Origin: a virus
Lineage: Duplodnaviria > Heunggongvirae > Uroviricota > Caudoviricetes
Length of the DNA stretch: 14,304 nucleotides
Strand: one strand, 5' to 3'
Virus record (IMG/VR): IMGVR_UViG_2681813271_000007
The position numbers and the translations under genes are program-made. Positions 1 to 13,630 of this stretch are shown one piece after another. The number at the start of each line of letters is the position of its first letter. Positions within the stretch are counted from its first letter, which is position 1. The notes under the pieces were generated by a model. The model worked only from the letters and a program-made list of their open reading frames with translations. It searched no databases and had not been told where the DNA came from.

Positions 1-90
1 CTCAGCAAATGATACATTGCCATGAGATAAATCATTACGATGTTGTTTAACAGTGGCTAATTTTTCACCATGTTTAGTGTGAGTGTTCAT
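1..90 (-). CDS. hypothetical small protein, 5' part only (continues beyond left edge); fourth gene of cargo cassette
   Basis: ATG at 90..88 on minus strand, in-frame stop one codon upstream; hand translation MNTHTKHGEKLATVKQHRNDLSHGNVSFAE open to window edge; overlaps end of upstream gene by 17 nt; AT-rich like neighbours; no clear SD. Confidence 0.35.
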   Translation of the reverse strand, partial: MNTHTKHGEKLATVKQHRNDLSHGNVSFAE

Positions 91-397
91 TTTTTAATCT
101 TTTTAATATTTCTGACCTGAGATTTTTCCTGAGTTTGTCAAATTCTACGTTTCTATCATAAATAGTCTCATGAATAAGGCAGATAGCTTCTCTCATTGTT
201 GATTCAATGAGGTTATATAACAGTATATATACTGCTCCCTTTAGAGTTTTTCGTGATTGAGCAGTAATGGAGAACTTATGTTCTTTATCATCAGCTGATA
301 TCAGTTCTGCACCGGCATACTCAATAAATTTCAAAAGATCCAAATAGGCCAAGATCTCTCCTGACCTTTCGTCAAAATCCTCACGAAAACGATCCAT
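74..397 (-). CDS. hypothetical protein (107 aa), third gene of cargo cassette
   Basis: ORF in track; strong SD (AGAGGA) 6-7 nt upstream of ATG embedded in end of upstream gene; stop-1nt-start junction (TAACATG) suggests translational coupling; AT-rich; no domain recognised. Confidence 0.6.
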   Translation of the reverse strand: MDRFREDFDERSGEILAYLDLLKFIEYAGAELISADDKEHKFSITAQSRKTLKGAVYILLYNLIESTMREAICLIHETIYDRNVEFDKLRKNLRSEILKRLKNEHSH

Positions 398-398
398 G

Positions 399-722
399 TT
401 AATCCTCTAATAATTTATCCCGAACATATTCAATTCGTTCAATTACCTTCACGCGACTATTAGCTCCGTCGGAAGTGGTCAATCGTTTGAATTCTTCTGA
501 GCTTAGCCAATCTAAGTTCTTGGGAACAAGGTCAGGGACTTCACGTAATGCAAGTGCTGCGCCAACAGCGAGAGATTCGAATCTAACTCGAGGTGTAGAT
601 TTTGCAGTAATAGTTTTCTTGAATCCTGCTGGGAAATAGTTTTCAACAAAAGATAGAACATTAGCAAACTCTTGTTTCATTGAGTTTTGTTTAGTTTCGT
701 CTATATCTCGATTTTCTGACAT
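399..722 (-). CDS. hypothetical protein (107 aa), possibly the C-terminal continuation of the DUF262 protein
   Basis: ORF in track; weak/no SD; its frame stays open upstream of the ATG all the way into the N run at 755..793 (..HSVRDFLNDY-M..). Confidence 0.5.
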   Translation of the reverse strand: MSENRDIDETKQNSMKQEFANVLSFVENYFPAGFKKTITAKSTPRVRFESLAVGAALALREVPDLVPKNLDWLSSEEFKRLTTSDGANSRVKVIERIEYVRDKLLED

Positions 723-726
723 ATAG

Positions 727-1587
727 TCATTTAGAAAATCCCGTACGGAATGATNNNNNNNNNNNNNNNNNNNNNNNNNNNNNNNNNNNNNNNTTGTACT
801 TATCTACGTAGGCAAAGAATCTTAATGTAAATTCTAACCGTTCATCTCGTTTTTCTTTAGTCTGAGATAAAGGTGCTAATTCTTTAAATTTAGGTATTGT
901 TGAGCATGGCTTAATAACCTGTGTATATAAATTTGTTGAACCAAGTTCTGATCCNNNNNNNNNNNNNNNNNNNNNNNNNNNNNNNNNNNNNNNNNNNNNN
1001 NNGCCAGAGTTAATACGCTCAAAAAGATCTCTACGGGTTTCTTCATTGCATTTAGAACTCAATTCTATAACGCGGACAGGAATTCTCATGAAACGACGTT
1101 GACGTGATAATGGTAAATCTTGGAATTTGAAACCATTAAGGACGTCTAAAGATTTCAGGTCTTGTAAAACTAATTCATTTTGGATAAAAGCGTGTATAGT
1201 CCTAACTCGTTGTGAGCCATCAACAATCTCAATTCGCCCATCTAAATCGGGATCTTCGGAGAGAACATCTGCTATAAATATATATGGTATAGGAAAACCC
1301 AAAATCAAAGACTCTATCAATTTTGATTGTCTTTTTTCACTCCAAACAAAATCCCTTTGATAATCAGGAACAAAGAGTTCGTTAGTATCATCCTCTAATC
1401 CGTTATGATACTTATTAACTAATAACTCAACGGTAAATTCTTTGGTCTCAAAATCCACATCCTTTTGCTCAGCACGAATTTGCTCTTCAGCGTTTTGCTT
1501 TATCACCTCTAGCTGAGCAAGCAACTCTGCTCTTTTCTTGGCATTATCTTCATTTTCTAGTTGAGATTTTAAATCAATAATGTCCAT
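727..1587 (-). CDS. DUF262 / ParB-like domain protein (GmrS-like N-terminal domain family), interrupted by two N runs
   Basis: Translation contains VPDYQRDFVW ... LILGFPIPYIFI ... IEIVDGSQRVRTIHAF ... FERINSG, matching the hallmark YQR..W and DGQQR-type motifs of DUF262; preceded by ~45 aa charged coiled-coil-like N-terminus; first ATG at 1587 with AAGGGAA SD 8 nt upstream (track ORF extends to TTG at 1605). Confidence 0.7.
   Translation of the reverse strand: MDIIDLKSQLENEDNAKKRAELLAQLEVIKQNAEEQIRAEQKDVDFETKEFTVELLVNKYHNGLEDDTNELFVPDYQRDFVWSEKRQSKLIESLILGFPIPYIFIADVLSEDPDLDGRIEIVDGSQRVRTIHAFIQNELVLQDLKSLDVLNGFKFQDLPLSRQRRFMRIPVRVIELSSKCNEETRRDLFERINSGXXXXXXXXXXXXXXXXGSELGSTNLYTQVIKPCSTIPKFKELAPLSQTKEKRDERLEFTLRFFAYVDKYXXXXXXXXXXXXXXSFRTGFSK
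755..793. other. run of 39 N (masked or unsequenced bases) inside DUF262 gene
   Basis: seen directly in sequence. Confidence 1.
955..1002. other. run of 48 N (masked or unsequenced bases) inside DUF262 gene
   Basis: seen directly in sequence. Confidence 1.
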
Positions 1588-1605
1588 GTCTAGTTCCCTT
1601 AACAA

Positions 1606-1772
1606 GTGTTAAAAATTGAAGCGGATAGCATACCGCATAGATCATGAAAAATGCCATCATGTGCATGGATTTGCATGCGTCAGAAGTCGCTTTTATTGTT
1701 AGTTATCACTAGCGCTGGCGTGCTCTTGGAGTGTTCATGCAACTGCATTAAAACCGCCCCATGAAGCGGGCG
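1606..1772 (-). promoter_or_regulatory. putative promoter/operator region of the cargo operon
   Basis: Non-coding gap between cos and first cargo gene; contains direct repeat TGCATG..TGCATG (1662..1677) and several CATG motifs; no convincing sigma70 -35/-10 pair found by eye. Confidence 0.25.
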
Positions 1773-1791
1773 GGCGAGGCGGGGAAAGCAC
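1773..1791. other. cos: P2-type cos site (19-nt cohesive end)
   Basis: Sequence GGCGAGGCGGGGAAAGCAC matches my recollection of the P2 cohesive end; lies just beyond the 3' end of portal gene Q as in P2. Confidence 0.6.
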
Positions 1792-1931
1792 TGCGCGCTG
1801 GCGGTGGTGCTGATTTTATTTTCCAGCGTCTCAGCGCGTCGTGACGGCGCTTAGTCTGCCCGTTGGGCGTTGGTGTGTCTGCGGGATTTTTTGTGCGGTG
1901 ATGAGCGTGTGAGGGCGTGATGGCGGGGTGT

Positions 1932-1953
1932 AAAAAAGCCGCCCGCAGGCGGC
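1932..1953 (-). terminator. rho-independent terminator downstream of Q
   Basis: GCCGCC-cgca-GGCGGC hairpin (1938..1953) followed on the minus strand by TTTTTT (1932..1937), 5 nt after the Q stop codon. Confidence 0.6.
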
Positions 1954-1958
1954 GATGT

Positions 1959-2993
1959 TCAGCCGTTGTCAGTGTCCAGTGAGTAGTTTTTAAAGCGGAT
2001 GACCTCCTGACCGAGCCAGCCGTTTATCTCGCGGATCCTGTCCTGTAACGGGATAAGCTCATTGCGGACAAAGACCTTTGCCACTTTCTCAATATCACCC
2101 AGCGACCCGACGTTCTCCGGCTTGCCCCCCATCAACTGAAAGGGGATGCGGTGCGCGTCCAGCAGGTCAGCGGCGCTGGCTTTTTTGATATTAAAAAAAT
2201 CGTCCTTCGTTGCCACTTCACTGAGCGGGATAATTTTAATGCCGTCGGCTTTCCCCTGTGGGGCATAGAGAAACAGATTTTTAAAGTTATTGCGGCCTTT
2301 CGACTTAACCATGTTTTCGCGAAGCATTTCGATATCGTTGCGATCCTGCACGGCATCGGTGACGTACATGATGTATCCGGCATGTGCGCCGTTTTCGTAA
2401 TACTTGCGGCGGAACAGCGTGGCCGACTCATTCAGCCATGCAGAGTTAAGGGCGCTGAGATATTCCGGCAGGCCGTACAGCTCCTGATTAATATCAGGCT
2501 CCAGCAGGTGAAACACGGAGCCGGGCGCGAAGGCTGTCGGCTCGTTGAAGGACGGCACCCACCAGTAAACATCCTCCTCCACGCCACGACGGGTATATTT
2601 GGCCGGTGAGGTTTCCAGTCTGATGACCTTACCGGTGGTGCTGTAACGCTTTTCCAGAAACGCATTACCGAACACCAGAAAATCCAGCACAAAACGGCTG
2701 AAATCCTGCTGGGAAAGCCACGGGTGCGGGATAAACGTTGAAGCCAGAATATTACGTTTGACGTAAATCGGTGAGCTGTGATGCACGGCAGCACGCAGGC
2801 TTTTTGCCAGACCGGTAAAGCTGACCGGCGGCTCATACCATCTGCCGTTACTGATGCACTCGACGTAATCCAGAATGTCACGGCGGTCGAGTACCGGCAC
2901 CGGCTCACCAAAGGTGAATGCTTCCATTTTCGGGGCGCTGGCGGTGATTGTTTTTGCCGCAGGTCGCGGTGTTTTCCCTTTTTTCTTGCTCAT
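1959..2993 (-). CDS. Q: portal (capsid portal) protein, P2 gpQ
   Basis: 344 aa, N-terminus MSKKKGKTPRPAAK.., size and position match P2 Q; start overlaps P stop (TGATG). Confidence 0.93.
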   Translation of the reverse strand: MSKKKGKTPRPAAKTITASAPKMEAFTFGEPVPVLDRRDILDYVECISNGRWYEPPVSFTGLAKSLRAAVHHSSPIYVKRNILASTFIPHPWLSQQDFSRFVLDFLVFGNAFLEKRYSTTGKVIRLETSPAKYTRRGVEEDVYWWVPSFNEPTAFAPGSVFHLLEPDINQELYGLPEYLSALNSAWLNESATLFRRKYYENGAHAGYIMYVTDAVQDRNDIEMLRENMVKSKGRNNFKNLFLYAPQGKADGIKIIPLSEVATKDDFFNIKKASAADLLDAHRIPFQLMGGKPENVGSLGDIEKVAKVFVRNELIPLQDRIREINGWLGQEVIRFKNYSLDTDNG

Positions 2994-4765
2994 CAGTAAA
3001 ACTCCAGAATGGTGGATGTCAGCGGAGTGCTGATACCGGCGGTGAGTGGCTCATTTAACAGGGCGTGCATGGTTGCCCAGGCGAGGTCGGCGTGGCTGGC
3101 TTCCTCGCTGCGGCTGGCCTCATAGGTGGCACTGCGTCCGCTGCTGGTCATGGTCTTGCGGATAGCCATGAACGAGCTGGTGATGTCGGTGGCGCTGACG
3201 TCATATTCCAGACAGCCACGGCGGATGACGTCTTTGGCCTTGAGCACCATTGCGGTTTTCATTTCCGGCGTGTAGCGGATATCGCGCGCGGCGGGATAGA
3301 ACGAGCGCACGAGCTGGAACACGCCGACACCGAGGCCGGTGGCATCAATACCGATGTATTCGACGTTGTATTTTTCGGTGAGTTTGCGGATGGACTCCGC
3401 CTGGGTGGCAAAGTCCATGCCTTTCCACTGGTGACGCTCAAGTATTCTGAATTTGCCACCGGCCACCACCGGCGGTGCCAGCACCACGCATCCGGCGCTG
3501 TCGCCACGGTGTGACGGGTCGTAACCAATCCATACCGGGCGGGAGCCGAACGGATTTGCGGCAAACGGCGCGTAGTCTTCCCATTCTTCCAGCGTGTCGA
3601 CCATGCAGCGTTGCAGCTCCTCGAACGGGAACACCGATACCTTGTCGTCAACAAATTCACACATGAACAGGTTTTTAAAATCGTCGGCGCTGTTTTCGCG
3701 TTTGAGCTGCTCAATGTCGAACAATGTGCAGCCGCCTTTCAGGGCGTCCTCAATGGTGACAATCTGCCGCCACTGGCCGTCCGCACAGAGAAGACCACCG
3801 GCAAGGGCGTTATGACTGACGTCGATTTCCACACGTTCGGCGGCGCTGGCGCGTCCCCGGTTGAACAGTTCACCCGACCAGAACGGGTAGGCGTCGTGCG
3901 CCAGCGTGGACGGGGTGGAGAAATAGGTCGAGCGCAGGTGACTCTGTGAGGCCATACCTGATGCCACCTTACGCAGTACCTGAAAATTCGGGATCCAGAA
4001 AATCTCGTCGACGTACAGGTCGCCGTTATGGCTCTGTGCGGTGTTGGAGTTGGTGCCGAGAAAAATCAGTTTTGCGCCGTTATTGCCCAGGACAATCGGG
4101 TCACCGGTCAGGTCAACGTCAACCAGACGAGCAAAGGCGATGATGTATTCACGGAACACATACGCCTGCGTTTTACTGGCCGACAGAAAAATCTGGTTAT
4201 GGCCGGTTTTCAGGGCGCGCAGCAGCGCCTCGCGGGAAAAATAAAACGTCGCGCCAATCTGGCGGGATTTCAGGATATCGCGGATGCGGTGCTCAAGCCC
4301 GGCACGATACCAGTGCAACTGATAGTCGAAAGACTGCTCAAAGAAAATCTGCTCCAGCTTTTCGATGGCCTCGTCACTGAAAAAATTCTTTTTCGGTTTG
4401 CGACGCCCGCCTTTGTTGCGGTTAGCGATGTTCGGATTAAGGTCTGCCTCGTTGCCGGTCTGGCTGTAGCGGTTTACCCGTGCCAGTCGTTCAATCTGGC
4501 GTCCGAGCAGGTCAATTTCCTTGAAGTCACCGCCGGTTTTCTGCGGTTTGATGATGAGCTGGGTCAGCCGCGCTTCCAGACTCATTTCGACACGGCTGAT
4601 GGGGGCAACACTGTCCCAGCCGTCGCGCTGTTTCCAGCTCTGCACCGTCGGGCGTTTCATCTGCAACATGGCGGCAATCTGCGGCACGGAAAACCCCTGC
4701 CAGTACAGCAGCGCCGCCTGACGACGCGGGTCGTGTAAAAGAGTGGTGTCTGTGGTGATGGTCAT
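2993..4765 (-). CDS. P: terminase large (ATPase) subunit, P2 gpP
   Basis: 590 aa from ATG at 4765 (MTITTDTTLL..) with GAGG SD; track ORF extends 10 codons further upstream; size/order match P2 P. Confidence 0.93.
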   Translation of the reverse strand: MTITTDTTLLHDPRRQAALLYWQGFSVPQIAAMLQMKRPTVQSWKQRDGWDSVAPISRVEMSLEARLTQLIIKPQKTGGDFKEIDLLGRQIERLARVNRYSQTGNEADLNPNIANRNKGGRRKPKKNFFSDEAIEKLEQIFFEQSFDYQLHWYRAGLEHRIRDILKSRQIGATFYFSREALLRALKTGHNQIFLSASKTQAYVFREYIIAFARLVDVDLTGDPIVLGNNGAKLIFLGTNSNTAQSHNGDLYVDEIFWIPNFQVLRKVASGMASQSHLRSTYFSTPSTLAHDAYPFWSGELFNRGRASAAERVEIDVSHNALAGGLLCADGQWRQIVTIEDALKGGCTLFDIEQLKRENSADDFKNLFMCEFVDDKVSVFPFEELQRCMVDTLEEWEDYAPFAANPFGSRPVWIGYDPSHRGDSAGCVVLAPPVVAGGKFRILERHQWKGMDFATQAESIRKLTEKYNVEYIGIDATGLGVGVFQLVRSFYPAARDIRYTPEMKTAMVLKAKDVIRRGCLEYDVSATDITSSFMAIRKTMTSSGRSATYEASRSEEASHADLAWATMHALLNEPLTAGISTPLTSTILEFY

Positions 4766-4938
4766 GAATACCTCGCCGTGATGAATACACGGCAAGGCTA
4801 CTGAGTCGCGCCCCGCGATTCGCTAATGTGCTGTTGTGTCAGTGATAAACCATCCGGGACTGATGGCGGAGGATGCGCATCGTCGGGAAACTGATGCCGA
4901 CATGTGACTCCTCTAATCACTATTCAGGACTCCTGACA
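4766..4938. promoter_or_regulatory. divergent late promoter region between P and O
   Basis: Intergenic region between divergently transcribed P and O, the position of the Ogr-dependent late promoters in P2; contains partial dyad TGTGA-N9-TCACT near 4905..4925; motif match imperfect. Confidence 0.4.
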
Positions 4939-5793
4939 ATGGCAAAAAAAGTCTCAAAATTCTTTCGTATCGGCGTTGAGGGTGACACCTGTGACGGGCG
5001 TGTCATCAGTGCGCAGGATATTCAGGAAATGGCCGAAACCTTTGACCCGCGTGTCTATGGTTGCCGCATTAACCTGGAACATCTGCGCGGCATCCTGCCT
5101 GACGGTATTTTTAAGCGTTATGGCGATGTGGCCGAACTGAAGGCCGAAAAGATTGACGATGATTCGGCGCTGAAAGGCAAATGGGCGCTGTTTGCGAAAA
5201 TCACCCCGACCGATGACCTTATCGCGATGAACAAGGCCGCGCAGAAGGTCTACACCTCAATGGAAATTCAGCCGAACTTTGCCAACACCGGCAAATGTTA
5301 TCTGGTGGGTCTGGCCGTCACCGATGACCCGGCAAGCCTCGGCACGGAATACCTGGAATTCTGCCGCACGGCAAAACACAACCCCCTGAACCGCTTCAAA
5401 TTAAGCCCTGAAAACCTGATTTCAGTGGCAACGCCTGTTGAGCTGGAATTTGAAGACCTGCCTGAAACCGTGTTCACCGCCCTGACCGAAAAGGTGAAAT
5501 CCATTTTTGGCCGCAAACAGGCCAGCGATGATGCCCGTCTGAATGACGTGCATGAAGCGGTGACCGCTGTTGCTGAACATGTGCAGGAAAAACTGAGCGC
5601 CACTGAGCAGCGCCTCGCTGAGATGGAAACCGCCTTTTCTGCACTTAAGCAGGAGGTGACTGACAGGGCGGATGAAACCAGCCAGGCATTCACCCGCCTG
5701 AAAAACAGTCTCGACCACACCGAAAGTCTGACCCAGCAGCGCCGCAGCAAGGCCACCGGTGGTGGCGGTGACGCCCTGATGACGAACTGCTGA
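4939..5793 (+). CDS. O: capsid scaffolding protein, P2 gpO
   Basis: 284 aa from ATG 4939 (MAKKVSKFFRIGVEGD..) with AGGA SD; size/order match P2 O. Confidence 0.92.
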   Translation: MAKKVSKFFRIGVEGDTCDGRVISAQDIQEMAETFDPRVYGCRINLEHLRGILPDGIFKRYGDVAELKAEKIDDDSALKGKWALFAKITPTDDLIAMNKAAQKVYTSMEIQPNFANTGKCYLVGLAVTDDPASLGTEYLEFCRTAKHNPLNRFKLSPENLISVATPVELEFEDLPETVFTALTEKVKSIFGRKQASDDARLNDVHEAVTAVAEHVQEKLSATEQRLAEMETAFSALKQEVTDRADETSQAFTRLKNSLDHTESLTQQRRSKATGGGGDALMTNC

Positions 5794-5851
5794 CCGGCGT
5801 CAGTCAGTCCGGGAAAACCTTCACGATTAACCCTTAATTTCAGGAAAAACT

Positions 5852-6924
5852 ATGCGCCAGGAAACCCGCTTTAAATTTAATGCTTACCTGTCCCGTGTTG
5901 CCGAGCTGAACGGCATCGACGCCGGTGATGTGTCGAAAAAATTCACCGTTGAACCGTCGGTCACCCAGACCCTGATGAACACCATGCAGGAGTCCTCTGA
6001 CTTTCTGACCCGCATCAACATTGTGCCGGTCAGTGAAATGAAAGGGGAAAAAATTGGCATCGGTGTCACCGGCTCCATCGCCAGCACCACCGACACCGCC
6101 GGTGGCACCGAGCGTCAGCCGAAGGACTTCTCGAAGCTGGCGTCAAACAAGTACGAATGCGACCAGGTTAACTTCGATTTTTATATCCGCTACAAAACGC
6201 TTGACCTGTGGGCGCGTTATCAGGATTTCCAGCTCCGTATCCGTAACGCCATTATCAAACGCCAGTCCCTTGATTTCATCATGGCCGGTTTTAACGGCGT
6301 GAAGCGTGCCGAAACCTCTGACCGCAACAGTAATCCGATGCTGCAGGATGTGGCGGTCGGCTGGCTGCAGAAATACCGAATGAAGCCCCGGCGCGCGTGA
6401 TGAGCAAGGTCACTGACGAGGAAGGCCGCACCACCTCTGAGGTTATCCGCGTGGGTAAGGGCGGTGATTATGTAAGCCTCGATGCACTGGTGATGGATGC
6501 GACCAACAACCTGATTGAACCTTGGTATCAGGAAGACCCTGACCTTGTGGTGATTGTGGGGCGTCAGCTACTGGCGGACAAGTATTTCCCTATCGTCAAC
6601 AAGGAGCAGGATAACAGCGAGATGCTGGCCGCTGACGTCATCATCAGCCAGAAACGCATCGGTAACCTGCCGGCGGTACGCGTCCCGTACTTCCCGGCGG
6701 ATGCGATGCTCATCACGAAGCTGGAAAACCTGTCCATCTACTACATGGATGACAGCCATCGCCGCGTGATTGTGGAAAACCCGAAACTCGACCGCGTGGA
6801 GAACTACGAGTCAATGAACATTGATTACGTGGTGGAGGACTACGCCGCCGGTTGTCTGGTGGAAAAAATTAAGGTCGGTGATTTCTCCACACCGGCTAAA
6901 GCGACCGCAGAGCCGGGAGCGTAA
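5852..6924 (+). pseudogene. N: major capsid protein P2 gpN, disrupted by a -1 frameshift near 6378..6381 (fragments 5852..6400 and 6397..6924)
   Basis: Two adjacent ORFs of 182 and 175 aa in different frames, overlapping by 4 nt; together 357 aa, the expected size of P2 N; upstream frame ends ..GWLQKYR then MKPRRA-stop, downstream frame reads NEAPARVMSKVTDE.. Confidence 0.75.
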
Positions 6925-6927
6925 CCG

Positions 6928-7671
6928 ATGACGAGTCCCGCACAGCGCCACATGATGCGGGTCTCGGCAGCGATGACCGCGCAGCGGGAAGCCGCCCCGC
7001 TGCGACATGCAACTGTCTATGAGCAGATGCTGGTCAAGCTGGCCGCAGACCAGCGCACACTGAAAGCGATTTATTCAAAAGAGCTGAAGGCCGCGAAAAA
7101 ACGCGAACTGCTGCCGTTCTGGTTGCCGTGGGTGAACGGCGTGCTGGAGCAGGGCAAAGGTGCACAGGATGACATTCTGATGACGGTCATGCTGTGGCGT
7201 CTGGATACCGGCGATATTGCCGGTGCGCTGGAGATTGCCCGTTATGCCCTGAAGTACGGTCTGACCATGCCGGGTAAACACCGCCGCACCCCGCCGTACA
7301 TGTTCACCGAGGAGGTGGCGCTTGCGGCCATGCGCGCTCACGCTGCCGGTGAGTCTGTGGATCCCCGCCTGCTGACGGACACCCTCGAACTGACCGCCAC
7401 GGCTGACATGCCTGATGAAGTGCGCGCAAAGCTGCACAAAATCACCGGTCTGTTTCTGCGTGACGCTGGTGATGCCGCAGGTGCGCTGGTACACCTGCAA
7501 CGTGCGACACAGCTCGACTGTCAGGCAGGCGTCAAAAAAGAGATTGAACGACTGGAGCGGGAGCTGAAACCGAAGCCGGAGCCGCAGCCCAAAGCGGCCA
7601 CCCGCACTCCGCGTAAGACCCGGAGCGTGACACCGGCAAAACGTGGACGCCCGAAAAAGAAAGCCAGTTAA
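6928..7671 (+). CDS. M: terminase small (endonuclease) subunit, P2 gpM
   Basis: 247 aa, GGGAG SD; basic KPKPEPQPK..RGRPKKK C-terminus; size/order match P2 M. Confidence 0.92.
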   Translation: MTSPAQRHMMRVSAAMTAQREAAPLRHATVYEQMLVKLAADQRTLKAIYSKELKAAKKRELLPFWLPWVNGVLEQGKGAQDDILMTVMLWRLDTGDIAGALEIARYALKYGLTMPGKHRRTPPYMFTEEVALAAMRAHAAGESVDPRLLTDTLELTATADMPDEVRAKLHKITGLFLRDAGDAAGALVHLQRATQLDCQAGVKKEIERLERELKPKPEPQPKAATRTPRKTRSVTPAKRGRPKKKAS

Positions 7672-7770
7672 CAACCGAATGCGCCCCGCGCCAGGGCGGC
7701 ACGCCGGTCAGTGACGGTGAATCACCTGACACTGCACCGGCGTCCACCGCCCGACTTTTCAGAGGTAGTC

Positions 7771-8280
7771 ATGATGACGCTGATTATTCCGCGAAAGGAG
7801 GCTCCCGTGTCCGGTGAGGGTACGGTGGTTATCCCGCAACCGGCAGGCGACGAGCCGGTGATTAAAAACACGTTCTTTTTTCCCGATATTGACCCGAAGC
7901 GCGTCCGGGAACGTATGCGCCTTGAGCAGACCGTCGCCCCCGCCCGTCTGCGTGAGGCCATCAAGTCAGGCATGGCGGAGACGAATGCGGAGCTGTACGA
8001 GTACCGCGAACAGAAAATTGCTGCCGGTTTTTCGCGTCTGGCTGACGTCCCGGCGGACGACATCGACGGTGAAAGCATCAAAGTTTTTTACTACGAGCGC
8101 GCTGTGTGTGCGATGGCGACCGCGTCGCTTTATGAGCGTTACCGCGGCGTGGATGCCAGTGCCAAGGGCGACAAGAAGGCCGACAGCATTGACAGCACCA
8201 TTGATGAGCTGTGGCGGGATATGCGCTGGGCGGTGGCGCGTATCCAGGACAAGCCGCGCTGCATCGTGAGTCAAATCTGA
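7771..8280 (+). CDS. L: head completion/stabilisation protein, P2 gpL
   Basis: 169 aa from ATG 7771 (MMTLIIPRKE..) with GAGG SD; track ORF starts 20 codons upstream. Confidence 0.9.
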   Translation: MMTLIIPRKEAPVSGEGTVVIPQPAGDEPVIKNTFFFPDIDPKRVRERMRLEQTVAPARLREAIKSGMAETNAELYEYREQKIAAGFSRLADVPADDIDGESIKVFYYERAVCAMATASLYERYRGVDASAKGDKKADSIDSTIDELWRDMRWAVARIQDKPRCIVSQI

Positions 8281-8483
8281 TGAAGACCTTTGCGCTACAG
8301 GGCGACACGCTCGACGCCATTTGTGTTCGGTATTACGGGCGCACTGAGGGCGTGGTCGAGGCCGTGCTCGCCGCAAATCCGGGACTGGCTGAACTGGGGG
8401 CGGTGCTGCCACACGGCACCGCCGTCGAACTGCCCGACGTTCAGACCGCGCCCGTGGCTGAAACTGTCAATCTGTGGGAGTAA
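8280..8483 (+). CDS. X: tail protein X, P2 gpX
   Basis: 67 aa (MKTFALQGDTLDAICVRYYG..), ATG overlaps L stop (TGATG). Confidence 0.85.
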   Translation: MKTFALQGDTLDAICVRYYGRTEGVVEAVLAANPGLAELGAVLPHGTAVELPDVQTAPVAETVNLWE

Positions 8484-8486
8484 CGC

Positions 8487-8768
8487 ATGACAGCAGAAGA
8501 AAAAAGCGTCCTGTCGCTTTTCATGATTGGGGTGCTGATTGTTGTCGGCAAGGTGCTTGCCGGTGGTGAACCCATCACTCCGCGTCTGTTTATCGGGCGC
8601 ATGTTGCTCGGTGGTTTTGTCTCGATGGTTGCCGGTGTTGTTCTGGTGCAGTTTCCTGACCTGTCACTGCCTGCGGTGTGCGGCATCGGCTCCATGCTGG
8701 GTATCGCCGGTTATCAGGTGATTGAGATTGCCATTCAGCGCCGCTTTAAGGGCAGGGGGAAACCGTAA
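8487..8768 (+). CDS. Y: holin, P2 gpY
   Basis: 93 aa, hydrophobic transmembrane segments, GGGAG SD, position upstream of endolysin. Confidence 0.9.
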   Translation: MTAEEKSVLSLFMIGVLIVVGKVLAGGEPITPRLFIGRMLLGGFVSMVAGVVLVQFPDLSLPAVCGIGSMLGIAGYQVIEIAIQRRFKGRGKP

Positions 8769-9265
8769 TGCCGGTAATTAGCACACATCAGAATATCGCC
8801 GCCTTTCTCGACATGCTGGCCGTGTCCGAAGGGACGGCGAATCATCCGCTGACGAAAAACCGGGGCTATGACGTGATAGTCACCGGACTGGACGGGAAGC
8901 CGGAAATCTTCACCGACTACAGTGACCACCCGTTCGCACATGGCCGACCGGCGAAGGTGTTTAACCGTCGCGGTGAAAAATCCACGGCCTCCGGTCGCTA
9001 TCAGCAGCTTTACCTGTTCTGGCCGCACTACCGCAAACAGCTTGCCCTGCCGGATTTCAGTCCGTTGTCACAGGACAGGCTCGCCATTCAGTTGATCCGC
9101 GAACGCGGTGCACTGGATGACATCCGGGCGGGACGCATTGAGCGCGCCATTTCACGCTGTCGCAATATCTGGGCGTCCCTGCCGGGTGCCGGTTACGGTC
9201 AGCGTGAGCATTCACTGGAAAAACTGGTCACCGTCTGGCGCACCGCTGGCGGCGTACCGGCTTAA
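8768..9265 (+). CDS. K: endolysin (lysozyme), P2 gpK
   Basis: 165 aa, start overlaps Y stop (TAATG); size/order match P2 K. Confidence 0.92.
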   Translation: MPVISTHQNIAAFLDMLAVSEGTANHPLTKNRGYDVIVTGLDGKPEIFTDYSDHPFAHGRPAKVFNRRGEKSTASGRYQQLYLFWPHYRKQLALPDFSPLSQDRLAIQLIRERGALDDIRAGRIERAISRCRNIWASLPGAGYGQREHSLEKLVTVWRTAGGVPA

Positions 9266-9279
9266 ACGGAGTAAACACC

Positions 9280-9705
9280 ATGAAGAAATTATCCCTTTCA
9301 CTGATGCTGAACGTGTCGCTGGCGCTGATGCTGGCACTGTCCCTGATTTACCCGCAGAGCGTGGCCGTCAGTTTTGTCGCTGCATGGGCGATTCTGGCGA
9401 CGGTTATCTGTGTGATTGCCGGTGGTGTCGGCGTGTATGCCGCGGAGTATGTGCTGGAACGCTACGGGCGGGAGCTGCCGCCGGAATCGCTGGCCGTGAA
9501 GATTGTCACGTCGCTGTTTTTGCAGCCGGTGCCGTGGCGCAGACGGGCAGCGGCTCTGATGGTGATGGTGGCGACGTTTATCTCGCTGGTCGCTGCCGGG
9601 TGGATTTTTACCGCACTGATTTATCTCGTGGCATCGCTGTTTTTCCGGCTGATACGTACGGCCTGCCGTCAGCGTCTTGAGGGGCGGGAACCATGTCAAA
9701 ACTGA
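9280..9705 (+). CDS. lysA: lysis accessory membrane protein LysA
   Basis: 141 aa, strongly hydrophobic multi-TM protein, GGAG SD; order matches P2. Confidence 0.85.
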   Translation: MKKLSLSLMLNVSLALMLALSLIYPQSVAVSFVAAWAILATVICVIAGGVGVYAAEYVLERYGRELPPESLAVKIVTSLFLQPVPWRRRAAALMVMVATFISLVAAGWIFTALIYLVASLFFRLIRTACRQRLEGREPCQN

Positions 9706-10118
9706 TGATTGTGCTGGTTGTGTTGTTATCGCTGGCGGTGGCCGGTCTGTTTCTGGTGAAACACAAAAATGCCAGCCTGCGCGCCTTGCTGGACAGGGCG
9801 AACAACGTCGCCAGTGAACAGCAGACGACCATCACCATGCTGAAAAACCAGCTTCATGTTGCCCTCACCAGGGCAGACAAAAACGAGCTGGCGCAGGTGG
9901 CACTGCGTCAGGAACTGGAGAACGCCGCGAAGCGTGAAGCTCAGCGCGAGAAAACCATCACGAGGTTACTTAATGAAAACGAAGATTTTCGCCGCTGGTA
10001 CGGTGCTGACCTGCCTGATGCTGTGCGCCGGTTGCACCAGCGCACAGCCTGCGCAGACGCCAGTGATTGTCCACAACGCCTGCCCGAAAGTGAGCCTTTG
10101 CCCGATGCCGGGCAGTGA
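9693..10118 (+). CDS. lysB: LysB, Rz-like inner-membrane spanin
   Basis: 141 aa, N-terminal TM helix then coiled-coil-like periplasmic region; GAGG SD. Confidence 0.85.
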   Translation: MSKLMIVLVVLLSLAVAGLFLVKHKNASLRALLDRANNVASEQQTTITMLKNQLHVALTRADKNELAQVALRQELENAAKREAQREKTITRLLNENEDFRRWYGADLPDAVRRLHQRTACADASDCPQRLPESEPLPDAGQ

Positions 10119-10263
10119 CCCGCAGACGAACGGCGATTTAAGTGCTGATATCCGGCAGCTTGAGAACGCGCTGGCACGCTGTGCCAGCCAGGTAAAAATG
10201 ATTAAACACTGTCAGGACGAAAACGATGCTCAAACCCGACAGCCTGCGCAGGGCGCTGACTGA
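9973..10263 (+). CDS. lysC: LysC, Rz1-like outer-membrane lipoprotein spanin, nested in +1 frame within lysB
   Basis: 96 aa from ATG 9973 with GAGG SD; MKTKIFAAGTVLTCLMLCAGCTS.. lipoprotein signal with lipobox-like LCAGC; Pro-rich mature part. Confidence 0.8.
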   Translation: MKTKIFAAGTVLTCLMLCAGCTSAQPAQTPVIVHNACPKVSLCPMPGSDPQTNGDLSADIRQLENALARCASQVKMIKHCQDENDAQTRQPAQGAD

Positions 10264-10693
10264 TGCCGTCACGGTGCTGAAAACAAGCCCCGAGATGCTG
10301 CGGATATTCGTGGATAACGGGAGTATTGCCTCCACACTGGCGACGTCGCTGTCATTCGAAAAGCGTTACACGCTCAACGTGATTGTGACCGACTTTACCG
10401 GTGATTTTGACCTGCTCATCGTGCCGGTGCTGGCGTGGCTGCGGGAAAATCAGCCCGACATCATGACCACCGACGAAGGCCAGAAAAAGGGCTTCACGTT
10501 TTATGCAGACATCAACAATGACAGCAGCTTTGATATCAGCATCAGCCTGATGCTGACCGAGCGCACGCTGGTCAGTGAGGTGGACGGCGCGCTGCATGTG
10601 AAGAATATCCCGGAACCTCCGCCGCCGGAGCCGGTCACCCGCCCGATGGAGCTTTATATCAATGGCGAACTGGTGAGTAAGTGGGATGAATGA
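10226..10693 (+). CDS. R: tail completion protein, P2 gpR
   Basis: 155 aa, AGGA SD; size/order match P2 R. Confidence 0.9.
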   Translation: MLKPDSLRRALTDAVTVLKTSPEMLRIFVDNGSIASTLATSLSFEKRYTLNVIVTDFTGDFDLLIVPVLAWLRENQPDIMTTDEGQKKGFTFYADINNDSSFDISISLMLTERTLVSEVDGALHVKNIPEPPPPEPVTRPMELYINGELVSKWDE

Positions 10694-11138
10694 GTTTAAG
10701 CGTTTTGAAGACAGGCTGACCGGACTTATTGAGTCGCTGTCACCGTCAGGGCGTCGGCGACTGAGCGCCGAACTGGCGAAACGTCTGCGTCAGAGTCAGC
10801 AGCGTCGGGTGATGGCACAGAAAGCCCCGGACGGCACACCCTACGCACCACGCCAGCAGCAGAGCGCCAGAAAAAAGACCGGTCGCGTTAAGCGAAAAAT
10901 GTTTGCGAAACTTATCACCAGTCGTTTTTTGCATATCCGCGCCAGCCCTGAACAGGCATCAATGGAGTTTTACGGCGGGAAGTCACCGAAAATAGCCAGT
11001 GTGCATCAGTTCGGTCTGTCGGAAGAAACCCGGAAAGACGGTAAGAAAATTCATTATCCGGCGCGTCCCCTGCTCGGCTTTACCGGTGAGGATGTGCAGA
11101 TGATTGAAGAGATTATCCTGGCTCACCTCGACCGTTAG
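10686..11138 (+). CDS. S: tail completion protein, P2 gpS
   Basis: 150 aa, ATG overlaps end of R; size/order match P2 S. Confidence 0.9.
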   Translation: MNEFKRFEDRLTGLIESLSPSGRRRLSAELAKRLRQSQQRRVMAQKAPDGTPYAPRQQQSARKKTGRVKRKMFAKLITSRFLHIRASPEQASMEFYGGKSPKIASVHQFGLSEETRKDGKKIHYPARPLLGFTGEDVQMIEEIILAHLDR

Positions 11139-11170
11139 TTGTGCCATTCCTGACACCTCATCGTCACATT

Positions 11171-11192
11171 GCCGCCGGTATGACCCGGCGGC
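11171..11192 (+). other. perfect 8-bp stem hairpin in S-V intergenic region
   Basis: GCCGCCGG-tatgac-CCGGCGGC, 12 nt upstream of the V start codon; no downstream T-tract. Confidence 0.5.
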
Positions 11193-11204
11193 ATCCTTCC
11201 CGTT

Positions 11205-11840
11205 ATGAACACTCTCGCAAATATTCAGGAACTCGCGCGCGCACTGCGCAACATGATCCGCACCGGCATTATCGTCGAAACCGACCTTAATGCCGGTCGC
11301 TGCCGTGTGCAGACCGGCGGCATGTGCACCGACTGGCTTCAGTGGCTGACCCATCGCGCCGGACGTTCGCGCACATGGTGGGCACCTTCCGTGGGGGAAC
11401 AGGTGCTGATTCTGGCCGTAGGCGGTGAACTCGACACGGCGTTCGTTCTGCCGGGGATTTATTCCGGTGATAACCCCGCGCCGTCTGCGTCGGCGGATGC
11501 CCTGCATATCCGTTTCCCTGACGGGGCGGTGATTGAGTATGAACCTGAAACCAGTGCACTCACGGTAAGCGGAATTAAAACGGCCAGCGTGACGGCTTCT
11601 GATTCTGTTACTGCCACGGTGCCGGTGGTCACGGTGAAAGCATCAACCCGCGTCACTCTGGACACGCCGGAGGTGGTCTGCACAAACAAGCTGATCACTG
11701 GCACGCTGGAAGTGCAGAAGGGCGGGACGATGCGCGGCAACATTGAACACACCGGCGGTGAACTCTCATCAAACGGGAAGGTACTGCATACCCATAAACA
11801 CCCCGGCGACAGCGGCGGCACAACCGGGAGTCCTCTATGA
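11205..11840 (+). CDS. V: baseplate central spike protein, P2 gpV
   Basis: 211 aa; size/order match P2 V. Confidence 0.92.
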   Translation: MNTLANIQELARALRNMIRTGIIVETDLNAGRCRVQTGGMCTDWLQWLTHRAGRSRTWWAPSVGEQVLILAVGGELDTAFVLPGIYSGDNPAPSASADALHIRFPDGAVIEYEPETSALTVSGIKTASVTASDSVTATVPVVTVKASTRVTLDTPEVVCTNKLITGTLEVQKGGTMRGNIEHTGGELSSNGKVLHTHKHPGDSGGTTGSPL

Positions 11841-12184
11841 CAGCGCGTTATCTCGGAATGAATCGCAGTGATGGCCTGACTGTCTCTGACCTTGAGCATA
11901 TCAGCCAGAGTATCGGCGATATCCTGCGCACGCCGGTCGGCTCACGGGTGATGCGTCGTGATTACGGCTCGTTGCTGGCGTCAATGATTGACCAGCCGCA
12001 GACCCCGGCGCTTGAGTTGCAGATTAAGGTCGCCTGTTACATGGCCGTGCTGAAATGGGAAGCCCGCGTCACCCTGTCATCCGTCACCACGGCGCGCAGC
12101 TTTGACGGGCGAATGACGGTCACGTTAACCGGCCAGCACAACGACACCGGCCAGCCACTTTCGTTAACCATCCCTGTGAGTTGA
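11837..12184 (+). CDS. W: baseplate wedge protein, P2 gpW (gp25-like)
   Basis: 115 aa, ATG overlaps V stop (ATGA). Confidence 0.9.
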   Translation: MTARYLGMNRSDGLTVSDLEHISQSIGDILRTPVGSRVMRRDYGSLLASMIDQPQTPALELQIKVACYMAVLKWEARVTLSSVTTARSFDGRMTVTLTGQHNDTGQPLSLTIPVS

Positions 12185-12188
12185 AACC

Positions 12189-13097
12189 ATGCCGATTATC
12201 GACCTGAACCAGCTACCCGCACCGGATGTGGTCGAGGAGCTGGACTTTGAAACCATTCTTGCCGAACGCAAGGCGACACTGATTTCCCTTTACCCGGAAG
12301 ACCAGCAGGAGGCGGTCGCCCGTACCCTGACGCTGGAATCCGAGCCTCTCGTCAAACTGCTGGAGGAAAATGCTTATCGTGAGCTTATCTGGCGTCAGCG
12401 TGTGAATGAGGCCGCACGGGCGGTAATGCTGGCCTGTGCCGCCGGTAATGACCTTGATGTGATTGGTGCCAATTACAACACCACGCGCCTGATTATCACC
12501 CCGGCAGATGATTCGACCCTCCCGCCGACACCGGCAGTGATGGAATCTGACACGGATTATCGTCTGCGTATTCAGCAGGCGTTTGAAGGTTTAAGCGTCG
12601 CCGGGTCGGTGGGGGCCTATCAGTATCATGGTCGCAGTGCCGACGGGCGTGTCGCGGATATTTCTGTAACCAGTCCGTCTCCGGCCTGCGTCACCATCTC
12701 TGTGCTGTCACGTGAAAATAACGGTGTCGCATCCGAAGACCTGCTGGCGGTGGTGCGTAACGCCCTTAATGGTGAGGACGTCAGGCCGGTGGCCGACCGC
12801 GTGACCGTGCAGTCTGCCGCCATCGTTGAATACCAGATAAACGCCACGCTTTACCTTTACCCTGGTCCCGAAAGCGAACCCATACGCGCTGCTGCCGTGA
12901 AAAAACTGGAAGCGTACATCACGGCACAGCACCGGCTGGGGCGCGACATCCGTCTGTCTGCCATTTATGCCGCTTTGCATGTGGAAGGCGTGCAGCGTGT
13001 CGAACTGACTGCACCGCTGGCCGACATCGTGCTCAACAGTACGCAGGCGTCTTTCTGTACCGAATACCGCGTCGTGACCGGAGGCTCGGATGAGTGA
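12189..13097 (+). CDS. J: baseplate assembly protein, P2 gpJ
   Basis: 302 aa; size/order match P2 J. Confidence 0.92.
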   Translation: MPIIDLNQLPAPDVVEELDFETILAERKATLISLYPEDQQEAVARTLTLESEPLVKLLEENAYRELIWRQRVNEAARAVMLACAAGNDLDVIGANYNTTRLIITPADDSTLPPTPAVMESDTDYRLRIQQAFEGLSVAGSVGAYQYHGRSADGRVADISVTSPSPACVTISVLSRENNGVASEDLLAVVRNALNGEDVRPVADRVTVQSAAIVEYQINATLYLYPGPESEPIRAAAVKKLEAYITAQHRLGRDIRLSAIYAALHVEGVQRVELTAPLADIVLNSTQASFCTEYRVVTGGSDE

Positions 13098-13620: not shown

Positions 13621-13630
13621 GTGAGGAATA

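What the first reader, a model, noticed from the sequence alone, without database searches (positions are those of the whole stretch)
1590..1800. Sharp base-composition boundary at cos
By visual count the first 60 nt of the window are about 35 percent GC, and the whole region left of about 1600 looks similarly AT-rich, whereas the phage structural genes to the right are clearly GC-rich (over 50 percent by eye). The transition coincides with the cos-proximal intergenic region, consistent with cargo swapped in by recombination at a conserved flank.
Basis: seen in the sequence. Interest (0 to 1): 0.4.

Follow-up and report, generated by a model that had tools for sequence, protein, structure and literature searches.

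The report
AT-rich defence cargo beside P2 cos
The sharp drop in GC content is real, but it is the already-described junction in P2-type prophages between the conserved DNA-packaging site (cos) and a slot where AT-rich anti-phage gene cassettes are swapped in and out.

Summary
GC is 0.355 for window 1-1605 and 0.569 for 1959-14304. The maximum-likelihood change point is 1712 (support interval 1701-1755). GC3 is 0.19-0.30 on the left and 0.58-0.74 on the right.

The right side is a P2-type phage backbone. It holds the exact P2 19-nt cohesive end at 1773-1791, the conserved core cos at about 1743-1799, the tQ terminator, portal gene Q and terminase gene P.

The left side is a DUF262 (ParB/GmrSD_N-like) plus HEPN cassette on the minus strand. 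It sits where phage P2 carries old-tin.

About 40% of complete E. coli genomes (2,175 of 5,426) carry the cos/Q flank, but only 9 carry this cargo. Other prophages hold retron, TIR, cdtABC, helicase and other genes in the same slot. In 94 P2-class IMG/VR contigs the 1 kb left of cos always has GC of 0.46 or less (mean 0.376).

By-products:
- a phased TGCAT repeat array marks the outer edge of the conserved flank;
- this copy's HEPN gene carries a 161-bp frameshifting deletion.

The parts
1..397 (-). Remnant of the HEPN (MAE_28990/MAE_18760 family) gene, second gene of the cargo operon. It is disrupted by a 161-bp deletion between window 86 and 87 and is also cut by the window start.
   Evidence: Pfam HEPN_MAE_28990 scores 1.2e-09 on ORF 74-397 and 3.2e-29 on the intact 226-aa E. 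coli orthologue. The alignment to L001/L002 shows the 161-bp gap. The catalytic RNDLSH motif is encoded in 1-86 but out of frame with the N-terminal 104 aa.
399..1587 (-). DUF262 / ParB-like (GmrSD_N) gene, first gene of the AT-rich cargo operon. ATG at 1587. The N runs at 755-793 and 955-1002 interrupt it only apparently.
   Evidence: Pfam GmrSD_N scores 5.7e-24. PADLOC gives NsnA 4.5e-41 and PD-T4-2_A 1e-15 for the window copy, and 1.8e-54 and 4.5e-35 for the intact E. coli orthologue. All three unmasked segments translate in frame with the 380-aa orthologue. The N runs are 31 and 15 nt longer than the homologous sequence, which creates the false ORF split 399-722 / 727-1605.
1588..1647 (-). 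Cargo-specific leader and presumed promoter region (GC 0.37), with a ribosome-binding site AAGGGAA at 1594-1600. This is the last stretch that travels with the cargo.
   Evidence: It is shared only with same-cargo prophages L001 and L002. In phage P2 the old-tin transcript starts in the equivalent interval, 149-151 bp left of cos. No sigma-70 consensus promoter was found here, so the promoter is inferred.
1649..1677 (.). Array of TGCAT repeats phased at about 10 bp: a degenerate TGCCA at 1649, then TGCAT at 1662 and 1672. It is the outer limit of the conserved flank and probably a terminase recognition site.
   Evidence: Among 111 non-redundant flanks, TGCAT starts at -124/-121/-120, -111 and -101 from cos in 41/13/15, 64 and 77 of them. 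The background count is 0.17 per offset. Of 29 elements without a Q gene, 26 have TGCAT near -111 and all 29 have it near -101. Phage P2 has the repeats at -123, -111 and -101. A Tatumella prophage with a different cohesive-end sequence also has the array.
1681..1742 (.). Variable spacer of nearly constant length between the repeat array and the core cos (GC 0.45). The maximum-likelihood composition change point, 1712, falls here.
   Evidence: The window's spacer variant is shared with prophages carrying TIR and cdtABC cargos (L007, L008, L009, L087). The same-cargo prophage L002 has a different spacer. Change point.
1743..1799 (.). Core cos packaging signal. It includes the hairpin at 1754-1773 and the 19-nt cohesive-end sequence at 1773-1791.
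   Evidence: The 19-mer matches exactly in all 15 sequences compared. The linear records of phages Wphi and 11W begin at window 1773/1774. The block is near-invariant in 14 elements including a P4-like satellite and carries 1.3-2.0 bits per position across 111 flanks. It corresponds to the 55-bp core of Ziermann & Calendar 1990 as cited in PMC5694545. The hairpin was flagged by the terminator scan.
1938..1953 (-). tQ, the rho-independent terminator at the end of the P-Q late operon.
   Evidence: The terminator scan gives GCCGCC-TGCG-GGCGGC followed by TTTTTT. Phage P2 has tQ annotated at the homologous position, 160-181.
1959..2993 (-). Portal protein gene Q (344 aa), the first backbone gene to the right of cos.
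   Evidence: Pfam Phage_portal scores 3.3e-14. The DNA is 91-96% identical to Q of P2-like phages.
2993..4795 (-). Large terminase (ATPase) subunit gene P.
   Evidence: Pfam Terminase_6N 3.6e-59, Terminase_6C 3.3e-47 and Terminase_5 2.4e-27.

Best explanation
The composition step is the junction between the conserved backbone of a P2-type (Peduovirus) prophage and the hypervariable cargo slot that these phages keep between replication gene A and cos. This is the slot that holds old-tin in phage P2.

Right of about 1648 lies sequence the phage cannot vary: a phased TGCAT repeat array, a spacer, the core cos with its 19-nt cohesive end, the tQ terminator, portal gene Q and terminase gene P.

Left of 1648 lies an imported, AT-rich, leftward-transcribed two-gene cassette. 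It encodes a ParB-like DUF262 protein and a HEPN nuclease, the same domain architecture as the validated anti-T4 system PD-T4-2.

Cassettes are exchanged among co-resident P2-like (pro)phages by recombination in the conserved flanks. One flank is the cos region and Q. The other is the 3' end of gpA, which lies outside this window. The cargo keeps the low GC that is typical of the mobile defence-gene pool.

Shown here: the composition step, the identity of both sides, the conserved-flank and variable-cargo pattern, and the clustering of homology breakpoints.

Inferred: that exchange is by homologous recombination, that the cassette has a defence function, that the cassette has its own promoter in 1588-1647, and that the TGCAT array binds terminase.
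For: Composition:
- GC is 0.355 on the left and 0.569 on the right, with the change point at 1712.
- The log-likelihood gain is 132, against at most 32 in block shuffles. GC3 is 0.19-0.30 versus 0.58-0.74.

Backbone identity:
- The exact P2 cos 19-mer is present.
- Q and P are identified by Pfam, and tQ by the terminator scan.
- The gene order matches P2, where old has its start codon 195 bp left of cos and the old-tin transcript starts 149-151 bp left of cos.

Position inside a prophage:
- In near-identical E. coli prophages the order is gpA, Dcm methyltransferase, HEPN, DUF262, cos, Q.
- There the AT-rich island runs from the last 15-40 nt of gpA to the cos flank.

Flank common, cargo rare:
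- 2,175 of 5,426 genomes carry the flank and 9 carry the cargo.
- Alternative cargos seen in the slot: old-tin, retron, TIR, cdtABC, ParB plus methyltransferase, DEAD helicase and an ABC-three-component system.

Breakpoints and mosaicism:
- Homology start points cluster at 1648-1664, 1706-1718 and 1726-1744.
- Spacer variant and cargo re-assort.

Generality:
- In 94 P2-class IMG/VR contigs GC is 0.376 +/- 0.036 in the 1 kb left of cos and 0.538 +/- 0.022 to the right.
- In the non-Q class, which includes P4-like satellites, the low-GC side is the opposite side of cos.

Cross-lineage transfer:
- A Tatumella P2-like prophage carries the cargo at 84% amino-acid identity, while its Q is 63% and its gpA 31% identical.

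Literature:
- Rousset 2022 (PMC9122126) describes the hotspot between gpA and gpQ next to cos, with 1,650 arrangements in 18,150 loci.
- Vassallo 2022 (PMC9519451) reports the same slot and lists PD-T4-2 as 'DUF262, HEPN'.
Against: - No exchange event is observed directly. Clustered homology end points could partly reflect where functional constraint ends rather than where crossovers occur.
- No sigma-70 consensus promoter was found for the cassette.
- The HEPN protein matches no PADLOC model, PD-T4-2_B included, so homology to a tested system rests on the DUF262 partner alone.
- In this window the HEPN gene is frameshifted by a 161-bp deletion, so the cassette is probably non-functional here.
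- The gpA-side flank is outside the window and is known only from relatives.
Confidence: 0.9

Rival explanations
1. The step is the end of the prophage: an attachment-site junction between AT-rich host or island DNA and the phage.
For: Prophage ends often coincide with composition shifts. The window itself stops inside the cargo, so the far flank is not visible.
Against: In the E. coli genomes with 98% and 89% identical sequence, the cargo is followed by a methyltransferase and then by phage genes gpA, cox and repressor-like genes. In P2 prophages cos is internal. There is no integrase, tRNA gene or att-like repeat here (Rfam: nothing).
Confidence: 0.02
2. The AT-rich block is a self-mobile element (IS, transposon or integron-like cassette) that inserted next to cos using its own recombinase.
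For: It is a discrete block of foreign composition with sharp edges.
Against: The intact island holds no transposase or integrase gene. Only short, 70-82% matching repeats, at chance level, flank it. The NAR 2026 study also reports that transposable elements are almost absent from these hotspots. Edges coincide with functional phage elements (the gpA 3' end and the TGCAT array) across dozens of unrelated cargos.
Confidence: 0.03
3. Exchange is driven by the cos ends themselves. Cohesive ends produced by terminase, or exposed after injection, initiate recombination, and a second homologous crossover occurs at gpA. This is not ordinary homologous recombination between two flanks.
For: [quoted passage not shown] Rousset 2022 raises this idea.
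Against: Homology end points lie 30-125 bp left of the cleavage site, at the edges of conserved blocks, not at the cleavage site. The 19-mer and about 30 bp on either side are invariant, so the sequence data cannot separate the two pathways.
Confidence: 0.25
4. The low GC reflects selection or mutation bias acting on defence genes wherever they reside. It is not a sign of a recent import from an AT-rich donor.
For: All 94 P2-class cargos have GC of 0.46 or less. In 31 of 33 genomes from many phyla the DUF262-HEPN module has lower GC than its flanks, while partly tracking host GC (0.26-0.53).
Against: This is compatible with the main explanation rather than opposed to it. It concerns why the cargo is AT-rich, not what the boundary is. 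The cargo's rarity in E. coli (9 of 5,426 genomes) and its presence in divergent phages still require transfer.
Confidence: 0.5

Closest known systems
Cos-proximal defence hotspot of P2-like phages, between gpA and gpQ (Rousset et al. 2022, PMC9122126; Odegrip et al. 2006; Dodd & Egan 1996 for retrons replacing DNA next to cos in a 186-like prophage)
   Same: The position is the same: directly left of cos and Q, and downstream of gpA in the intact relatives. The architecture is the same: conserved flanks with hypervariable cargo. The cargo has the same defence-type domains. Like old-tin in P2, the cassette reads leftward, away from cos.
   Different: Nothing essential differs. The papers read here do not mention base composition. 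They also do not describe the nucleotide-level edge found here, where cargo ends at the phased TGCAT array about 125 bp from the cleavage site.
P2 old-tin lysogenic-conversion module (NC_001895)
   Same: It occupies the same slot, is on the minus strand, and is AT-rich (old 0.348, tin 0.329, versus Q 0.534). The distance from its start codon to cos is similar: 195 bp in P2 and 186 bp here.
   Different: The proteins are unrelated. P2 has an OLD-family ATPase-nuclease and Tin; this window has DUF262 and HEPN.
PD-T4-2 (Vassallo et al. 2022), a two-gene 'DUF262, HEPN' system from E. coli ECOR65 that is active against T4
   Same: It is a two-gene operon with a DUF262 protein followed by a HEPN protein. 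The DUF262 protein matches the PADLOC PD-T4-2_A model over nearly its whole length (4.5e-35).
   Different: The HEPN partner matches no PADLOC model. The DUF262 protein scores higher against Menshen NsnA (1.8e-54). The relatives add an adjacent C5-cytosine methyltransferase.
P2/P4 cos site (Ziermann & Calendar 1990; 55-bp core)
   Same: The 19-nt cohesive end is identical, and a near-invariant core of about 57 bp is shared with P4-like satellites.
   Different: A second conserved element lies 100-125 bp from the cleavage site: three TGCAT repeats with 10-bp phasing. I could not check whether the 1990 paper already describes it, because that paper is not held.

Membership tests
P2-like cos-proximal defence hotspot (Rousset 2022) | The locus lies between replication gene gpA and portal gene gpQ, directly adjacent to cos | tested here: met
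   cos at 1773-1791 and Q at 1959-2993 are in the window. gpA is outside the window, but it flanks the same cargo in 98% and 89% identical E. coli prophages.
P2-like cos-proximal defence hotspot (Rousset 2022) | Gene content is hypervariable between conserved flanks | tested here: met
   The flank is in 2,175 genomes and this cargo in 9. There are 58 cargo clusters among 93 elements. At least 8 different cargo types appear in annotated loci.
P2-like cos-proximal defence hotspot (Rousset 2022) | The cargo confers anti-phage defence | not testable with these tools
   Only domain-level support is available: DUF262 (NsnA and PD-T4-2_A models) and HEPN. The HEPN gene is disrupted in this copy.
P2-type cos site | 19-nt cohesive-end sequence GGCGAGGCGGGGAAAGCAC within a core of about 55 bp shared with P4 | tested here: met
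   The 19-mer matches exactly. The core at about 1743-1799 is conserved in P2, other P2-like prophages and a P4-like satellite. The 55-bp core is cited in PMC5694545.
PD-T4-2 | The first protein matches PD-T4-2_A (DUF262) | tested here: met
   E = 1e-15 for the N-masked window copy. E = 4.5e-35 with profile coverage 55-356 of 363 for the intact orthologue. NsnA scores higher, however.
PD-T4-2 | The second protein belongs to the PD-T4-2 HEPN partner family | tested here: not met
   The protein is a HEPN protein by Pfam (HEPN_MAE_28990, 3.2e-29). It has no hit to any PADLOC model, even at E <= 10.
Menshen (NsnABC) | Three-gene system: NsnA (DUF262 plus ParBDB), NsnB (ABC ATPase plus DUF3696) and an NsnC effector | tested here: not met
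   An NsnA-like protein is present (1.8e-54). The next gene is a HEPN protein, and no ATPase gene is in the island. The definition is from PMC12065111.
GmrSD type IV restriction enzyme | DUF262 fused to a DUF1524 HNH-type nuclease domain | tested here: not met
   Only GmrSD_N is found in the 380-aa protein. There is no DUF1524 hit.
Moron (autonomous transcription unit inserted in a phage genome) | Deviant base composition together with its own promoter and terminator | tested here: inconclusive
   The composition criterion is met. No consensus promoter was found in 1588-1720. The terminator end lies outside the window. P2 old-tin has mapped transcript starts in the equivalent position.
Transposon / IS / integron cassette | Terminal repeats, target duplication or an associated recombinase | tested here: not met
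   The intact island has no recombinase gene. Only weak repeats at chance level flank it.

The most novel reading that the evidence does not exclude
Two readings go beyond the literature I could read.

(a) The three 10-bp-phased TGCAT repeats at -124 to -97 from the cos cleavage site may be the terminase small-subunit recognition array of P2-type phages. The array is shared by helper phages and P4-like satellites. On this reading it is the hard outer limit of the cargo slot and may serve as a homology anchor for cassette exchange.

(b) The cargo may really be a three-gene unit conserved across phyla: a C5-cytosine methyltransferase, a ParB-like DUF262 protein and a HEPN protein. It would act as an unconventional restriction-modification-like system in which methylation marks self DNA.

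Neither reading is excluded by my data, and neither was tested functionally.
Probability: 0.35. Interest if true: 0.45.

Novelty: already known. Interest (0 to 1): 0.15.

Why it matters
It matters little as a discovery. P2-like prophages are known to carry a hotspot of AT-rich defence and lysogenic-conversion cassettes next to cos, and this window is one more instance, apparently a decaying one.

The check is still useful in three ways:
- It shows that a GC step beside a P2 cos is a reliable, family-wide marker of the cargo slot. It held in all 94 P2-class contigs examined, and the low-GC side is mirrored to the other side of cos in the non-Q class, which includes P4-like satellites.
- It fixes the edge of the exchangeable region at nucleotide resolution, about 125 bp left of the cleavage site at a phased TGCAT array.
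- It flags a methyltransferase plus DUF262 plus HEPN module, conserved across phyla, that has the architecture of PD-T4-2 but is not covered by current defence-system models for its HEPN partner.

Tried and rejected
- Rfam scan of the whole window: no RNA family reached threshold.
- Sigma-70 promoter scan of 1400-2100: nothing between the DUF262 start and cos. A manual look at the minus strand found no convincing -35/-10 pair either. The cassette's promoter therefore remains inferred by analogy with P2 old-tin.
- Search for transposon-like terminal or direct repeats around the intact island in L001: only chance-level matches.
- PADLOC scan for the HEPN partner, also at E <= 10: no hit.
- Literature:
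  - Odegrip 2006 (PMC1367236) is not held.
  - A search for P2 terminase (gpM) binding sites returned only irrelevant papers.
  - Neither hotspot paper mentions base composition.
  - Three queries failed on term-format rules.
- My first attempt to separate P2-like from P4-like contigs by ungapped identity of the right flank failed because of small indels. I replaced it with BLAST against the Q region.
- I first took the 70-bp matches at 1729-1799 as all being P4-like satellites. One (H116) turned out to be a P2-like prophage with a retron cargo and a partly deleted portal region. Another (H108) is a genuine P4-like element.
- I initially miscounted the cos start as 1774; the exact-match search gives 1773.
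- The prophage-end (att) reading was rejected because phage early genes continue beyond the cargo in the relatives.

Full report
**1. The observation**

The window falls into two compositional domains.
- With N excluded, GC is 0.350 for bases 1-60, 0.355 for 1-1605 and 0.569 for 1959-14304.
- On the left, 300-bp windows range 0.31-0.42. On the right they never drop below 0.497.
- A two-segment likelihood scan puts the change point at 1712, with a 2-log-likelihood interval of 1701-1755.
- The gain is 132 nats. In 500 shuffles of 100-bp blocks the mean gain was 8.1 and the maximum 32.1.
- In 50-bp windows GC climbs from 0.30-0.34 at 1551-1650 to 0.72 at 1751-1800.
- The difference is strongest at third codon positions: GC3 is 0.19-0.30 in the left genes and 0.58-0.74 in fifteen genes on the right.

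**2. What lies on each side**

*Right side: a P2-type phage backbone*
- The 19-nt P2 cohesive-end sequence GGCGAGGCGGGGAAAGCAC is at 1773-1791.
- Linear GenBank records of phages Wphi and 11W begin exactly there.
- Next come a terminator hairpin at 1938-1953, which matches the annotated tQ of P2, and then portal gene Q (1959-2993, minus strand) and large terminase gene P (2993-4795, minus strand).

*Left side: a minus-strand operon*
- The first gene encodes a DUF262/GmrSD_N (ParB-like) protein, with its ATG at 1587. The second encodes a HEPN protein of the MAE_28990 family, starting at 397.
- The apparent split of the DUF262 gene into ORFs 727-1605 and 399-722 is an artefact. The N runs at 755-793 and 955-1002 are 31 and 15 nt longer than the sequence they replace in close relatives. 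All three unmasked segments translate in frame with the 380-aa E. coli orthologue.

**3. Context from relatives**

Eight complete E. coli genomes carry window 1-2100 at about 98% identity, and one carries it at 89%. In these genomes the gene order is replication endonuclease gpA, C5-cytosine methyltransferase, HEPN, DUF262, cos, Q, P, O, N, M. The boundary is therefore internal to a prophage and is not an att junction.

In strain JNE120442 the AT-rich island is about 3 kb long. Homology to other P2-like elements stops within the last 15-40 nt of gpA on one side. On the other side it stops at the cos flank.

Phage P2 itself has the same architecture. Its genes old (GC 0.348) and tin (GC 0.329) are on the minus strand. 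The old start codon is 195 bp left of cos, and the mapped old-tin transcript starts are 149-151 bp left of cos. In the window the DUF262 ATG is 186 bp left of cos.

**4. Conserved flank, variable cargo**

- The cos/Q flank is present in 2,175 of 5,426 complete E. coli genomes, but the cargo is present in only 9.
- In annotated loci the same slot holds old-tin, a retron, a TIR protein, cdtABC, ParB plus methyltransferase, a DEAD-box helicase, an ABC-three-component system, or hypothetical genes.
- Scanning IMG/VR for the exact 19-mer returned 120 contigs.
- In 94 contigs with a Q gene, the 1 kb left of cos has GC 0.376 +/- 0.036 (range 0.28-0.46) and the 1 kb to the right has 0.538 +/- 0.022.
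- In 29 contigs without Q, a class that includes P4-like satellites, the low-GC kilobase (0.352 +/- 0.026) lies on the opposite side of cos. In the one such element whose annotation I read (L005), that is the side carrying the cargo gene next to the integrase. Rousset 2022 places the P4 hotspot between psu and the integrase.
- The averaged profile steps up between -150 and -50 relative to cos.

The composition boundary is therefore a family-wide property, not a peculiarity of this window.

**5. Nucleotide-level anatomy of the junction**

An alignment of 14 elements anchored on cos, and per-position information content over 111 non-redundant flanks, show four layers.
- **1743-1799:** a near-invariant core cos, shared with P4-like satellites. 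It corresponds to the 55-bp core of Ziermann & Calendar 1990 as cited in PMC5694545.
- **1681-1742:** a spacer that varies in sequence but is nearly constant in length.
- **1649-1677:** TGCAT repeats. Copies start at -124/-121/-120, -111 and -101 from cos in 41/13/15, 64 and 77 of the 111 flanks. The background count is 0.17 per offset. Of the 29 non-Q elements, 26 have a copy near -111 and all 29 have one near -101. P2 has copies at -123, -111 and -101. A Tatumella prophage with a different cohesive-end sequence also has them.
- **Left of 1648:** nothing is shared except among same-cargo prophages.

The 10-bp phasing of the repeats, and their presence in satellites that share only the packaging signal with their helpers, point to a terminase recognition array. 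This is an inference. I could not check whether it has already been described.

With sensitive BLAST scoring, homology of other elements to the window begins in three zones: 1648-1664, 1706-1718 or 1726-1744. The megablast sample of E. coli genomes agrees. The likelihood change point at 1712 falls in the spacer.

**6. Evidence for exchange**

- The window's spacer variant is shared with prophages that carry TIR or cdtABC cargos. The same-cargo prophage GN04592 has a different spacer.
- Among 93 elements there are 58 cargo clusters and 57 spacer variants. Eight of the 21 cargo clusters with more than one member are linked to more than one spacer type.
- A P2-like prophage of Tatumella terrea carries DUF262, HEPN and the methyltransferase at 84%, 83% and 87% amino-acid identity, in the same slot and orientation. 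Its portal is only 63% identical and its gpA only 31% identical.
- The island holds no transposase or integrase gene and has no terminal repeats.

The simplest mechanism is recombination in the conserved flanks between co-resident P2-like genomes. Rousset et al. speculate that the cos ends themselves may initiate the exchange. The sequence data cannot separate these two pathways.

**7. The cargo**

- The intact E. coli DUF262 protein matches PADLOC NsnA (Menshen) at 1.8e-54 and PD-T4-2_A at 4.5e-35, in both cases over nearly its full length.
- The HEPN protein is a full-length HEPN_MAE_28990 (3.2e-29) but matches no PADLOC model.
- Menshen requires an ABC ATPase and an NsnC effector, and both are absent here. 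GmrSD requires a DUF1524 domain, which is also absent.
- PD-T4-2 is listed as 'DUF262, HEPN' and was validated against T4. It is therefore the closest functional analogue, but family membership is not established for the HEPN partner.
- In 33 genomes from many phyla, 28 have the HEPN gene immediately after DUF262, and most also have an adjacent C5-methyltransferase. The module's GC is below that of its flanks in 31 of the 33.
- A restriction-modification-like logic, in which methylation marks self DNA, is possible but untested.

**8. State of this copy**

Compared with the E. coli relatives, the window lacks 161 bp inside the HEPN gene, between window 86 and 87. This leaves 104 N-terminal residues followed by a frameshift. 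The catalytic RNDLSH motif is out of frame.

Capsid gene N has a 1-bp deletion near 6378/6379, which splits it into ORFs 5852-6400 and 6397-6924.

Either the prophage is decaying or the assembly has errors.

**9. Verdict**

- The edge is the outer limit of an extended packaging signal of about 150 bp, not the cleavage site.
- Low GC is generic to this cargo pool and does not by itself indicate a recent swap.

The feature is the cos-proximal defence hotspot of P2-like phages described by Rousset 2022 and Vassallo 2022. From my own knowledge, earlier work on P2 'morons' and on the AT-rich old, tin and Z/fun genes belongs to the same picture. The feature is already known and ordinary, so interest is low.

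Noticed in passing
window 1649-1677 (plus a further TGCAT at 1744): Three TGCAT repeats phased at about 10 bp lie at -124/-121, -111 and -101 from the cos cleavage site. They are conserved at fixed distance in P2, in most P2-like prophages and in nearly all non-Q (P4-like) elements. This may be a terminase recognition array. I could not check whether it has been described before.
   Followed up: partly
window 86/87 (HEPN gene, minus strand): A 161-bp deletion relative to nine E. coli orthologues frameshifts the HEPN gene ahead of its RNDLSH catalytic motif. The cargo's presumed effector is therefore probably inactive in this genome, unless this is an assembly error.
   Followed up: partly
window 6378/6379 (major capsid gene N, 5852-6924, + strand): A 1-bp deletion relative to E. 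coli JNE120442 splits the capsid gene into ORFs 5852-6400 and 6397-6924. This points to a defective prophage or a sequencing error.
   Followed up: partly
window 755-793 and 955-1002: These runs of N (39 and 48 nt) replace only 8 and 33 nt of sequence in close relatives. They do not preserve length or reading frame, so ORF calls across them are unreliable.
   Followed up: yes
L001 4826-7702; L135-L164 (genome-contig loci): A C5-cytosine methyltransferase sits next to the DUF262-HEPN pair in the E. coli and Tatumella prophages and in most homologous loci from Gammaproteobacteria, Bacteroidota, Planctomycetota, Acidobacteriota and others. This suggests a conserved three-gene module resembling a restriction-modification system. 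The HEPN partner is not covered by PADLOC models.
   Followed up: partly
L135 (Tatumella terrea), reverse-complement coordinates about 7440-8145: This divergent P2-like prophage has a different cohesive-end sequence (GGCGTGGCGGGGGAACGAG). It also has an additional AT-rich ORF between cos and Q, which is a second cargo position on the other side of cos.
   Followed up: no
window 1754-1773, minus strand: A GC-rich hairpin followed by TTTT sits inside the invariant core cos, abutting the cleavage site, and is flagged as terminator-like. It could also insulate the cargo from leftward late transcription. This is speculative.
   Followed up: no
L003 (E. coli EF7-18-58) and L014 (E. coli B-RalR): These P2-like prophages keep an intact cos and cargo (a retron in L003, an ABC-three-component system in L014) but have truncated portal genes. 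The cargo and cos can evidently persist in decaying prophages.
   Followed up: no
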